Shown here one piece after another: positions 4,348-44,019 of a DNA stretch of 64,000 nucleotides. Each line of letters opens with the position of its first letter. Position 1 is the stretch's first letter. The translations under genes were made by a program, and so were the position numbers. The stretch is from Eledone cirrhosa (Eukaryota), in the NCBI GenBank assembly GCA_964016885.1, contig CAXHJY010000542.1, positions 1 to 64,000 of the forward strand, given 5' to 3'. The notes under the pieces are model-generated. The model had not been told where the DNA came from and made no database searches. It worked only from the letters and a program-made list of their open reading frames with translations.

Positions 4348-4413
4348 TATTTTACCTGATGAAAGCGCACCATAATTTGCCTTGGTTGCCCTTGAAATAT
4401 GTATAATAAAATA
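4348..4413 (+). ncRNA. type I hammerhead ribozyme (family A, inverted copy)
   Basis: tattttac-CTGATGA-aagcgcacc...ggttgccctt-GAAA-tatgta-TA-ataaaata; the core-proximal stem I pair is mismatched. Confidence 0.65.
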
Positions 4414-32135: not shown

Positions 32136-33033
32136 ACATGTATGTATATATATATGTATGTATATATGTATATATATATGTATGTATATATGTATGTATA
32201 TATGTATGTATATATGTATGTATATATATATGTATGTATATAAATGAATATATATATATGTATGTATATAAATGAATATATATATATGTATGTATATATG
32301 TATGTATATAAATGAATATATATATATATGTATGTATATATATATGTATGTATATAAATGAATATATATATATATATGTATGTATATATATATGTATGTA
32401 TGTATATAAATGAATATATATATGTATGTATATAAATGAATATATATATATGTATATATATATGTATGTATATAAATGAATATATATATATGTATGTATA
32501 TATATATGTATATATATATATATATATGTATATATATGTATATATATATGTATATATATATATATGTATGTATATATATATATGTATATATATATATATG
32601 GGGGCCTGATAGGATTTCCAGATATAAGGTATGACTCTCTTTATTATTATTATTTTTTATCTGAAATACTGATTGATCTTCCTTGTACCCCATGTCTGAT
32701 TTAGCCTTAGACAATGTATATGGGTGATCCATACATGTATTTATTATGTTTTAATATCTCTATGTGTGCATTGGTTGTGTATACATATAGTTATTCTTTT
32801 AATATCCAATTGAGTTCTTATACACGTGGTTAATACCTAACAGGTTTAAATGACCAGCGTGTATATTGTTTTATTTTAAGATGACCTCCCTTTACCCTTT
32901 TGGGGACAGCGTGTATTTTATCTTTGAGAGGACTGCTGGATTTTCTAATCTACCAGTCTCTTCTTAGCGCTGAGGGAGACCATCACCATTCTATTAATGT
33001 CGATATAATTCTTATATCGATATTATTTGGGCA

Positions 33034-33157
33034 TCCACTGATGAGTTTATAAGAGCCCGCTTGTGTATAAAACTATGGATTATATACAAGTTTCTACATA
33101 ACCTGGAAATTATTTATCCAAAATTGTAGAAATCTTATAACGAAACGGCCGTCTGGA
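33034..33157 (+). ncRNA. type I hammerhead ribozyme with branched stem II insertion
   Basis: tcca-CTGATGA-gtttataaga[two hairpins]tcttataac-GAAA-cggccg-TC-tgga; perfect core, GUC site, palindromic stem III. Confidence 0.8.
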
Positions 33158-33338
33158 AGGAAAGAGATATTTATTTAATAATGTCTCATAAAATAATACA
33201 ACCAGCTATCCACGAAATACTCATTAGTTAGCACCCCAAACACTAAATTGGGATAATACTTAGGTATATCCTAATGTTTGTTGAGTGAGATGGAGTTGGT
33301 CGGAGTATCGCTTAAGGCTTTCTCTGTTTATGTATTGA

Positions 33339-33386
<48 letters not shown>

Positions 33387-33395
33387 TTGTATATA

Positions 33396-33496
<101 letters not shown>

Positions 33497-33580
33497 AGAT
33501 AGAGGGAGAGAGAATAGAATGAAACGAAATTTCATTTCTCACTCTTAGTACGGCACTTACTTAAATGTAAGTATGTATGA

Positions 33581-33876
33581 ATGTATACGTACATACATAT
33601 ATGTATACAGACGTACAGTAGTATGTATATATATACATACATGCACACACATATATATATATGCACGTATCGGTTTACCGAACATTTATTATAATGCTCG
33701 GTTTGTTTGTTTGTAAACACTGTACGGCGTAATTCGGGCTGTTTGTTTGTTTACAAACAAACAGACTGAGCATTATAATAAATGTTCGGTAAACCGATAC
33801 GTGCATATATATATGTGTGCATGTATGTATATATATACATACTACTGTACGTCTGTATACATATATGTATGTACGT

Positions 33877-33882
<6 letters not shown>
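33581..33882. repeat. inverted repeat (~135-bp arms, ~30-bp spacer), possible MITE or fold-back element
   Basis: gcacgtatcggtttaccgaacatttattataatgctc and its reverse complement. Confidence 0.7.
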
Positions 33883-33925
<43 letters not shown>

Positions 33926-43953: not shown

Positions 43954-44019
43954 TATTTCATTATATATATTTCAGGGATATCATATTAAAAATATGGTAT
44001 GCCTTCATCAGACAAAATA
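43954..44019 (-). ncRNA. type I hammerhead ribozyme (family A)
   Basis: tattttgt-CTGATGA-aggcataccatat..atatgatatccct-GAAA-tatata-TA-atgaaata. Confidence 0.75.

What the first reader, a model, noticed from the sequence alone, without database searches (positions are those of the whole stretch)
33034..33157. Perfect-core hammerhead with a three-way-junction domain inserted in stem II
The 9-bp stem II (33045-54/33133-41) opens into an 11-bp hairpin (33060-70/33080-90) and an 8-bp hairpin (33091-98/33125-32) with an inner tgga/tcca helix. That inner helix duplicates stem I (tcca/tgga), so alternative pairings that switch the ribozyme off are possible. Stem III ACGGCCGT is palindromic. Searches with short loop limits would miss a branched ~80-nt insertion like this. 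It lies in a ~730-bp element (32600-33330) bounded by TA repeats.
Basis: partly seen in the sequence, partly recalled or inferred. Interest (0 to 1): 0.75.

Follow-up and report, generated by a model that had tools for sequence, protein, structure and literature searches.

The report
Branched, knotted hammerhead in jumping repeats
This is a hammerhead-type RNA motif, predicted to cut itself, with an unusually large branched arm, carried by thousands of copies of a non-coding jumping repeat in an animal genome; a short pairing seen here and in unrelated repeats likely braces the fold, in a form that standard searches miss.

Summary
The motif is real and lies where described. It is a type I hammerhead (perfect core, GUC site, predicted cut after 33153) in a 763-nt non-coding unit. 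Copies end in (TA)n, are 5'-truncated and form head-to-tail arrays, as Penelope-mobilised retrozymes do. An intact-core pattern matches 3,914 places in the genome (control 0). The three-way junction in stem II holds up. RNAalifold on 14 subfamily representatives recovers it unaided, with compensatory changes in 12 of 35 pairs, and two older lineages only 44-59% identical keep it. The proposed inner-helix switch fails: that helix is in 3 of 30 copies and the alternative pairings have probability 0.00. GGGC just before stem I matches the unpaired GCCC in the junction, in every lineage. Unrelated hammerhead families here show the same register in other letters, with compensatory changes in one. 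This predicted pseudoknot probably replaces the usual loop-loop contact. Pseudoknot-braced hammerheads, palindromic stem III dimers and retrozymes are known; I did not find this architecture described. Cleavage, expression and the helper enzyme are untested or not found. Verdict: new variant of a known kind.

The parts
32600..33337 (+). One copy of family A: unit positions about 13-763 of a 763-nt non-coding, hammerhead-bearing repeat; lacks the first dozen bases of the unit
   Evidence: 96.6% identical to the unit consensus; shared 3' end at unit position 763 in 29 of 30 copies; longest ATG ORF 43 aa
32141..32599 (.). TA-rich microsatellite, 5' flank (target tract)
   Evidence: TRF; TA at the 5' junction in 19 of 30 copies
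33339..33465 (.). (AT)n microsatellite, 3' flank (target tract)
   Evidence: TRF; TA at the 3' junction in 28 of 30 copies
33028..33032 (+). 5' strand of the predicted pseudoknot, (T)GGGC, one base before stem I
   Evidence: Four of four pairs in 113 of 141 distinct intact-core copies; kept in lineages F and H; no compensatory change within this superfamily
33034..33037 (+). Stem I, 5' strand (TCCA)
   Evidence: U-A in 10, C-G in 4 of 14 representatives at the outer pair
33038..33044 (+). Catalytic core CUGAUGA (C3-A9)
   Evidence: core and stem I intact in 26 of 30 family-A copies
33045..33054 (+). Stem II, 5' strand (G10.1 first; one bulged U)
   Evidence: 3 of 9 pairs change on both sides
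33055..33059 (+). Unpaired junction strand GCCC(G), 3' strand of the predicted pseudoknot
   Evidence: Unpaired in the alignment consensus fold and wholly or largely unpaired in single-family folds (partly paired in lineage H); invariant in A-E, F, H
33060..33090 (+). Hairpin A of the stem II junction (11 bp)
   Evidence: 5 of 10 counted pairs change on both sides; pairing probability 0.99
33091..33132 (+). Hairpin B of the stem II junction (7-8 bp, internal loop, short inner helix)
   Evidence: 3 of 8 pairs change on both sides; probability 0.97; the 4-bp TGGA/TCCA inner form is a minority allele
33133..33141 (+). Stem II, 3' strand (ends in C11.1)
33142..33153 (+). GAA (G12-A14), palindromic stem III ACGGCCGU, and C17; predicted cut 3' of 33153
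   Evidence: Self-duplex -14.1 kcal/mol against +2.4 for the monomer hairpin; G-C in 8, A-U in 6 of 14 at the third pair
33154..33157 (+). Stem I, 3' strand (TGGA); predicted 5' end of the cut product
33164..33187 (+). Hairpin just downstream of the ribozyme
   Evidence: In the circular fold of the unit; similar hairpins read by eye in B-F; role unknown
32806..32815 (+). 3' arm (CCAA-TT-GAGT) of a bulged stem whose 5' arm (ACTC-TTGG) lies at unit position 8, 7 nt past the end of inserted copies; the ACTC part is missing in this copy
   Evidence: Found in units A, B and G, not in C or D by the same scan; lead from earlier finding e1-8671399
33281..33305 (+). Conserved 3'-terminal motif TTGAGTGAG...GGTCGGAG shared by lineages A-H
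   Evidence: it was used to find lineage H independently of the ribozyme

Best explanation
This is a type I hammerhead motif in a non-coding, TA-inserted tandem repeat (retrozyme-like, likely mobilised by Penelope-type enzymes), predicted to cut after C33153 as a dimer, and its branched stem II likely serves to hold out the GCCC strand that pairs with the GGGC before stem I as a bracing pseudoknot. SHOWN: the core; the covarying helices I, II, III, A and B; the unpaired GCCC; its match to GGGC in all lineages; tandem arrays of 2-5 units; fixed 3' ends, variable 5' ends; no ORF. INFERRED, step by step: (1) Tandem copies are transcribed. (2) Two hammerheads pair through the palindromic stem III, because the monomer hairpin is unstable. 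(3) The pseudoknot aligns stems I and II, as pseudoknots do in tested hammerheads (PMC3088659). (4) Two cuts release a 763-nt unit that is circularised. (5) A Penelope-type RT/GIY-YIG protein acting in trans nicks (TA)n and starts copying about 185 nt downstream of the cut site. It reads through the ribozyme and either drops off (5'-truncated copies) or continues past one unit (partial tandems and arrays). This solitary copy has no neighbour to pair with and lacks the start of the unit, so it is probably a dead-end insertion.
For: Fold: RNAalifold recovers stems I-III and both hairpins from 14 representatives with no structure given; 12 of 35 pairs change on both sides. Named structure: 14 of 43 pairs, 0 of 500 shuffles as high; slid controls give 2-4 pairs. 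Seven of eight family sequences fold singly into the junction; the G representative forms both hairpins but leaves stem II open. Lineages F and H, found by a core scan and by the 3'-end motif, not by the pseudoknot letters, are 44-59% identical to A-E and to each other and keep GGGC and GCCC. Same register in unrelated families: R GAGGT/ACCTC (7 of 9 copies) and S AAAGAA/TTCTTT (7 of 7). In 19 clusters of hammerheads with a 38-72-nt stem II region, 10 have 5 or more such pairs against a mean of 2.8, maximum 9, in 1000 flank shuffles (clusters are related, so not independent). In lineage S, 2 of 6 pseudoknot pairs change on both sides. Dimer: the active fold of two joined copies is -64.2 kcal/mol against -48.6 for two monomers. 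Mobility: 28 of 30 copies end in TA; 5' ends range over unit positions 1-372; 6 of 30 carry part of an adjacent unit head to tail; arrays of 2-5 units in B, C, D, G. The genome holds abundant RT + GIY-YIG ORFs.
Against: No cleavage or expression data. The GGGC/GCCC helix itself shows 0 of 5 compensatory pairs in this superfamily, and a search for third-position variants found only unrelated sequence in the 30 of 2,687 hits examined. For this family alone the match is weak statistically: shuffled flanks reach 4 pairs in 5.4% of trials. The same GGGC/GCCC pairing also appears in a nested non-ribozyme fold that is the minimum-energy structure of the fragment and of the circular unit, so it could inhibit instead of brace. 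Whether a 4-bp stem I and a 9-bp stem II let the pseudoknot coexist with the active core was not modelled. Many subfamilies have U-U at the core-proximal pair 10.1-11.1, which may weaken cleavage; the axolotl HHR_Amex2 has this too and cleaves (PMC7229834). No autonomous partner was found. 5' truncations do not clearly pile up at the cut (4 of 38). In an Anolis Penelope-like element cleavage was not needed for insertion in vitro (PMC11167929).
Confidence: 0.6

Rival explanations
1. The GGGC/GCCC pairing is an off-switch. It forms early in transcription, or in the circle, and traps the core, so the RNA survives uncut until a partner or protein refolds it.
For: It is paired in the minimum-energy folds of the 146-nt fragment and of the circular unit, where stem II is not formed; probability 0.43 in the whole element. 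All 30 family-A copies examined span the cut site (they were selected by a query spanning it), so uncut or re-ligated RNA is a template.
Against: It uses only bases left unpaired by the covarying ribozyme fold. The register relative to stems I and II is similar in unrelated families. The folding program cannot represent pseudoknots, so it must show this pairing as an alternative. Tested stem I/II pseudoknots activate (PMC3088659, passages).
Confidence: 0.17
2. The branched domain and the invariant GGGC and GCCC are a binding site for the helper RT protein or a host factor; cleavage is protein-assisted and the pairing is incidental.
For: The letters are invariant rather than covarying in this superfamily. 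The Anolis PAc hammerhead cleaved only with its protein (PMC11167929, passages).
Against: Other families use different complementary letters in the same register, with compensatory changes in lineage S.
Confidence: 0.1
3. The repeat is the terminal repeat (pLTR) of an autonomous Penelope-like element whose coding copies I did not sample.
For: 5' truncation, partial tandems and TA targeting are PLE traits (10.1101/2021.04.23.441226, section 6 and passages). An earlier, unchecked note says coding elements here carry oversized hammerheads (e1-8673761).
Against: In full-length copies the 3' end joins the unit start directly. Units of A, B, C, D, G and H have no ATG ORF over 47 aa. None of 50 GIY-YIG loci had this motif as its own terminal repeat; the one match was a nested B copy.
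Confidence: 0.08
4. One reading: the inner TGGA/TCCA helix swaps partners with stem I to turn the ribozyme off.
For: Both words are present in this copy; families with TCCA/TGGA stem I tend to have TGGA in hairpin B.
Against: The TCCA half is in 3 of 30 copies; C replaces A at 33120 in about 99.8% of summed contig depth in run X1. Alternative pairings have probability 0.00.
Confidence: 0.03

Closest known systems
Metazoan non-LTR retrozymes (Cervera and de la Pena 2020, PMC7229834, parts 2-3 of 6 read; Li, Clavereau and Pollet 2026, 10.64898/2026.07.22.740005, parts 1-3 of 5 read)
   Same: Non-coding, low-GC units with one type I hammerhead each; monomers, dimers and arrays; live beside autonomous Penelope-like elements; dimer cleavage where stem III is weak.
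   Different: Units of 620-990 nt against 150-450 nt in the 2020 paper (51-972 nt in the 2026 preprint). Stem II carries a 95-nt branched domain and a predicted pseudoknot in place of the loop 1/loop 2 contacts. Fixed 3' ends in (TA)n and PLE-style 5' truncation. Circular RNA not shown here.
Minimal hammerheads of Penelope-like elements (Cervera and de la Pena 2014, PMC4209133, parts 1-2 of 4 and passages of supplement file 2; supplement file 1 not searchable)
   Same: Long helix II (7-8 bp there, 9 here), short helix I (4-5 bp), small palindromic helix III, predicted dimer action.
   Different: Their descriptor allows a loop 2 of 3-10 nt; here about 78 nt lie inside stem II. They are described as lacking the typical tertiary contacts (PMC6155905, passages); here a pseudoknot is predicted. 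No ORF is attached.
Pseudoknot-stabilised hammerheads (Perreault et al. 2011, PMC3088659, passages; figures not seen)
   Same: Watson-Crick pairing between stem I and stem II regions as the tertiary contact; reported in about 40% of representatives, all three types, and shown by mutation and rescue.
   Different: Here the strand is offered from a three-way junction (or, in families R, S and others, an internal loop) at the end of a long stem II, in a dimer-type animal retroelement hammerhead. I could not see their figures, so an equivalent example there is not excluded.
Hydra and Neptune clades of Penelope-like elements (Craig et al. 2021, 10.1101/2021.04.23.441226, section 6 and passages)
   Same: (TA)n targeting, hammerhead near the end, 5' truncation, partial tandems; candidate helpers.
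   Different: They encode RT and GIY-YIG; this unit does not. Which clade mobilises it was not established.

Membership tests
Type I hammerhead ribozyme | Core C3 U4 G5 A6 N7 G8 A9, G12 A13 A14 A15, U16 H17 | tested here: met
   CUGAUGA, GAAA, GUC; consensus as listed in PMC3088659
Type I hammerhead ribozyme | Three stems around the core, stem I open-ended, core-adjacent pairs intact | tested here: met
   Recovered by RNAalifold with covariation in all three; G10.1-C11.1 in this copy, U-U in many sister subfamilies
Type I hammerhead ribozyme | Score at the Rfam RF00163 gathering threshold | tested here: not met
   19.5 bits against 34, E = 0.092, whole model matched at 33032-33159; the shortfall is attributed to the long insert (inference)
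Type I hammerhead ribozyme | Site-specific self-cleavage after H17 | not testable with these tools
   No assay; 5'-truncation proxy inconclusive
PLE minimal hammerhead (min-HHR) | Long helix II, short helix I, palindromic helix III | tested here: met
   9 bp, 4 bp, ACGGCCGU; palindromic or nearly so in A-G
PLE minimal hammerhead (min-HHR) | Loop 2 of 3-10 nt (published descriptor) | tested here: not met
   Descriptor text; 93-97 nt between the core halves here
PLE minimal hammerhead (min-HHR) | Located in the terminal repeat of an RT + GIY-YIG element | tested here: not met
   No ORF in units; not the terminal repeat of any of 50 GIY-YIG loci; sample small against 10,596 candidates
Non-LTR retrozyme | Tandem units each with a complete type I hammerhead | tested here: met
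   B dimers, C trimer, D five-unit array; for family A itself only partial tandems were seen
Non-LTR retrozyme | Non-coding, no LTR | tested here: met
   Longest ATG ORF 43 aa; no tblastn match to six PLE protein queries from this genome. PBS and PPT were not searched.
Non-LTR retrozyme | Unit of 150-450 nt with canonical loop-loop hammerhead | tested here: not met
   620-990 nt; no canonical loop 2; within the 51-972-nt range of the 2026 preprint except family D
Non-LTR retrozyme | Expressed as linear and circular RNA | not testable with these tools
   No RNA holder listed
Pseudoknot-stabilised hammerhead | Four or more Watson-Crick pairs between stem I and stem II regions | tested here: met
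   GGGC/GCCC plus U-G; 113 of 141 copies with 4 of 4 pairs
Pseudoknot-stabilised hammerhead | Compensatory change in the pseudoknot | tested here: inconclusive
   0 of 5 pairs in this superfamily; 2 of 6 in unrelated lineage S
Pseudoknot-stabilised hammerhead | Rate falls on disruption and is rescued by compensation | not testable with these tools
   Needs an assay
Autonomous Penelope-like element | ORF with RT and GIY-YIG endonuclease | tested here: not met

The most novel reading that the evidence does not exclude
Animal retroelement hammerheads include a large, unrecognised subclass in which a long stem II offers a strand from an internal loop or three-way junction to pair with the bases just before stem I. 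Tens of thousands of copies in many unrelated families of this one genome follow the plan, and this finding is its most elaborate form. The pseudoknot would be the missing tertiary contact of hammerheads thought to lack one, and could explain how slow, dimer-dependent Penelope-type hammerheads work or are timed in cells.
Probability: 0.45. Interest if true: 0.7.

Novelty: new variant of a known kind. Interest (0 to 1): 0.5.

Why it matters
Penelope-type hammerheads are described as minimal, slow in vitro and without tertiary contacts, and why elements keep them is open. This family supplies a natural panel of variants with covarying helices and one specific, testable contact. It also shows that the published descriptor and Rfam miss a large share of the hammerheads in this genome: 3,914 intact-core matches for this superfamily and 26,861 matches, control 2,322, for 40-70-nt stem II regions. 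Hammerhead counts in animal genomes may therefore be too low. The parts (retrozymes, dimer cleavage, pseudoknot bracing) are each known, which limits the surprise.

Tried and rejected
Inner-helix switch: rejected. Coding remnant or autonomous element: no ORF, no tblastn match. Autonomous partner: not found in 50 GIY-YIG loci, 10 loci of a second abundant clade, 30 loci from the 3'-end motif or 50 loci from the GGGC/GCCC pattern; PLE fragments next to copies were separate insertions in the same TA tracts. Link to Naiad elements: considered at first, not tested; no Naiad ORF was recognised in my samples. Covariation of GGGC/GCCC within the superfamily: none; the variant pattern gave 2,687 hits against a control of 13,659, and none of the 30 loci examined was a branched hammerhead. 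A pattern for families with another stem I closing pair found 0. Fossil evidence of cutting: of 65 matches, 38 were called 5'-truncated; 4 start exactly at the cut, 27 in the ten positions after it and 11 in the nineteen before, but 18 of the 27 fall in an A/T run that mimics the TA flank and 3 fall at another TA word, so inconclusive; at least two of the 38 look like internal deletions. Expression: no RNA holder listed. Family F copies vary without pattern, so no within-family covariation was counted. In alignment A1 the window row is shifted by one column at pair 10.1-11.1, so that pair is undercounted. The circular-unit fold (-216 against -165.5 +/- 7.1) used only 20 crude two-base shuffles and is not relied on. 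Not in print as far as searched: searches found no description of a branched or pseudoknotted stem II in animal retroelement hammerheads. Lunse 2017 (PMC5785218), Weinberg 2015 (PMC4509812) and Hammann 2012 (PMC3334697) are not held; PMC13725137 says variants with additional helices have been reported and cites Weinberg 2015, Eckert 2023 and Forgia 2023; the supplement of PMC7229834, file 1 of PMC4209133, bioRxiv supplements and all figures were unseen and may bear on novelty.

Full report
1. Observation. Rfam finds nothing at gathering thresholds in the window. At a loose threshold RF00163 matches 33032-33159 with 19.5 bits, cut-off 34. The descriptor of Cervera and de la Pena 2014 allows loop 2 of 3-10 nt (supplement passage).

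2. The element. A 251-base query gave 2,112 candidates in the 3.0-Gb own genome; the 40 scored are 97-100% identical. In 30 loci the copies share one 3' end (unit position 763 in 29 of 30), followed by TA in 28. Their 5' ends range over positions 1-372. Six of 30 carry part of an adjacent unit head to tail, with the 3' end joined to the unit start; contigs of public runs X1 and X2 show the same joint. The unit is 763 nt, the cut site is at 577, the longest ATG ORF is 43 aa, and no PLE protein query matches it. The window copy covers positions about 13-763 at 32600-33337. Sister families found in the flanks (B-E, G; 70-85% identical over the ribozyme) have units of 679-988 nt and form arrays of two to five units. 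An intact-core pattern counts 3,914 places, control 0. Of the first 100 listed, 99 belong to this superfamily by eye and 9 to family A; the odd one out was checked and is unrelated. These are the traits of non-autonomous Penelope-mobilised repeats, or non-LTR retrozymes (PMC7229834, parts 2-3; 10.64898/2026.07.22.740005, parts 1-3; 10.1101/2021.04.23.441226, section 6).

3. The branched domain is conserved as a fold. I aligned 14 subfamily representatives, chosen from 16 clusters of 141 distinct intact-core copies; one deletion and one truncated cluster were left out, and the window copy stood for family A. RNAalifold, given no structure, returned stems I, II, III and both hairpins, with changes on both sides in 12 of 35 pairs. 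For the named structure 14 of 43 pairs change on both sides, above all 500 shuffles, while slid controls give 2-4. Hairpin A has 5 of 10 and hairpin B 3 of 8. Two older lineages were found without using the junction: F by a core scan and H by the shared 3'-end motif. They are 44-59% identical to A-E and to each other and fold into the same junction with 93-94 nt between the core halves.

4. The proposed switch fails. The 4-bp TGGA/TCCA inner helix needs A at 33120, which 3 of 30 copies have; 26 have C and 1 has T. C makes up about 99.8% of summed contig depth in run X1. The three alternative pairings with stem I have probability 0.00 in 143-, 251- and 736-nt contexts.

5. The only unpaired strand of the junction, GCCC(A/G) at 33055-59, is complementary to (T)GGGC at 33028-32, one base before stem I. 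All four pairs are present in 113 of 141 copies and three in 24 more. Both words persist in F and H. Within this superfamily they never change together (0 of 5 pairs), so the evidence is invariance, not covariation. For this family alone a 4-bp match arises in 5.4% of shuffled flanks. The stronger evidence came from outside. Two unrelated repeat families with 53-57-nt stem II regions have a complementary pair in the same register with other letters: R, GAGGT/ACCTC, and S, AAAGAA/TTCTTT. Cross-family pairings reach 5 bp in 8 of 240. The abundant short-stem-II families lack it, apart from two AT-only matches that overlap paired bases; two other long-stem-II clusters and the mutated F copy also lack it. 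In a further sample of 19 clusters, 10 had five or more pairs against a shuffled mean of 2.8 and a maximum of 9 in 1000; cross-cluster pairings reached five in 67 of 342, because many clusters are related. In ten S-lineage sequences, 2 of 6 pseudoknot pairs change on both sides, and one pair is broken in 5 of 9. So a pseudoknot from the stem I 5' flank to the first unpaired strand beyond stem II looks like a common plan in this genome. The finding's three-way junction is that plan with hairpin B in place of an A/U-rich strand (inference).

6. How it most likely works. Stem III cannot close well in one molecule (+2.4 kcal/mol) but pairs fully between two (-14.1). The active fold of two joined copies is 15.6 kcal/mol better than that of two monomers. 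This matches dimer cleavage reported for PLE and amphibian hammerheads (PMC4209133, PMC7229834, PMC6765202 passages). Pseudoknots between stems I and II raised rates by orders of magnitude in tested hammerheads (PMC3088659, passages), so bracing is my preferred role (0.6). An off-switch role is the main rival (0.17): the same pairing occurs in nested non-ribozyme minimum-energy folds, and the fit of a 4-bp stem I with a 9-bp stem II was not modelled. Insertions end about 185 nt downstream of the cut and can read through it and beyond one unit, so the template can be uncut, multimeric or circular. Internal initiation is shown for an Anolis PLE (PMC11167929, passages). A bulged ACTC/GAGT stem, suggested by earlier notes e1-8671399 and e1-8673755, begins 7 nt past the end of inserted family-A copies and was found in units A, B and G but not C or D. 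It exists only in a tandem or circular RNA, which fits this model. Candidate helpers are plentiful, but none shared this element's ends. The test for 5' truncation at the cut was inconclusive (4 of 38), so I could not confirm that claim of e1-8664355 for this family. I also could not confirm the claim of e1-8673761 that coding elements carry such oversized hammerheads.

7. Comparison and novelty. It works like a dimer-type PLE or retrozyme hammerhead and meets the core and stem criteria of type I hammerheads. It fails the size limits of the published min-HHR descriptor and of the 2020 retrozyme description, and it is not an autonomous PLE. Eight literature searches found no account of a branched or pseudoknotted stem II in animal retroelement hammerheads. 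Three key papers are not held, figures and some supplements were unseen, and PMC13725137 (passages, reference list) notes that variants with additional helices exist. Two earlier notes of this scan describe the same or a similar motif; they are not independent evidence.

8. Verdict. The feature is real and well supported as structure, untested as enzyme. New variant of a known kind; interest 0.5. The boldest reading is a widespread, overlooked pseudoknot-braced subclass of animal hammerheads (probability 0.45, interest 0.7 if true), testable with a few mutants.

Noticed in passing
window 4279(-), 25317(-), 43671(-), 44011(-), 44164(+): Five hammerheads of other repeat families with a 31-32-nt stem II region and AT-rich palindromic stem III; the pair at 44011/44164 is an inverted arrangement. 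Partial or decayed partners at 4356(+) and 25431(+).
   Followed up: partly
L056, L456, L623, L627-L656 (family R): Unrelated 591-nt tandem and inverted repeat with a U3-A8 core variant hammerhead and GAGGT/ACCTC pairing; 7,605 pattern matches, control 49.
   Followed up: partly
L089, L624, L657-L686 (lineage S): Unrelated 483-nt repeat lineage, 2,605 matches, control 0; pseudoknot letters covary between subfamilies.
   Followed up: yes
G000, (L687-L716): 26,861 matches (control 2,322) to a hammerhead pattern with a 40-70-nt stem II region. Many families show stem II, a pyrimidine-rich unpaired strand, a hairpin and an A/U-rich strand; several have a complementary purine run before stem I.
   Followed up: partly
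window 32626-32634: AAG|GTATGA, resembling a 5' splice site, near the unit start; AAGGT is also in B, C and H. No conserved 3' site and no spliced copy seen. Penelope elements are known to keep an intron.
   Followed up: no
L597:3300-4388, L599, L593; A very young, abundant TA-inserting Penelope-like family (15,358 candidates, open frames up to 1,294 aa) with a divergent RT motif and its own short hammerhead-like motif; clade not determined; its 3' end does not match this element.
   Followed up: partly
L061, L077-L080: Neptune-type elements (clade assigned from motifs recalled and from 10.1101/2021.04.23.441226) carry short hammerheads with the U3-A8 core variant and ACCGGT stem III.
   Followed up: no
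window about 33580-33890: A long inverted repeat of another repeat family just downstream of the element, read by eye.
   Followed up: no
L503, L510, L507, L530, L528, L555, L605, L619: Further old, decayed families that share the 3'-terminal motif or the GGGC/GCCC plan, pointing to a long radiation of these elements.
   Followed up: partly
whole window and G000: A 3.0-Gb animal genome rich in AT microsatellites; the repeat landscape resembles an octopus genome (recalled, and said in earlier notes; not tested).
   Followed up: no
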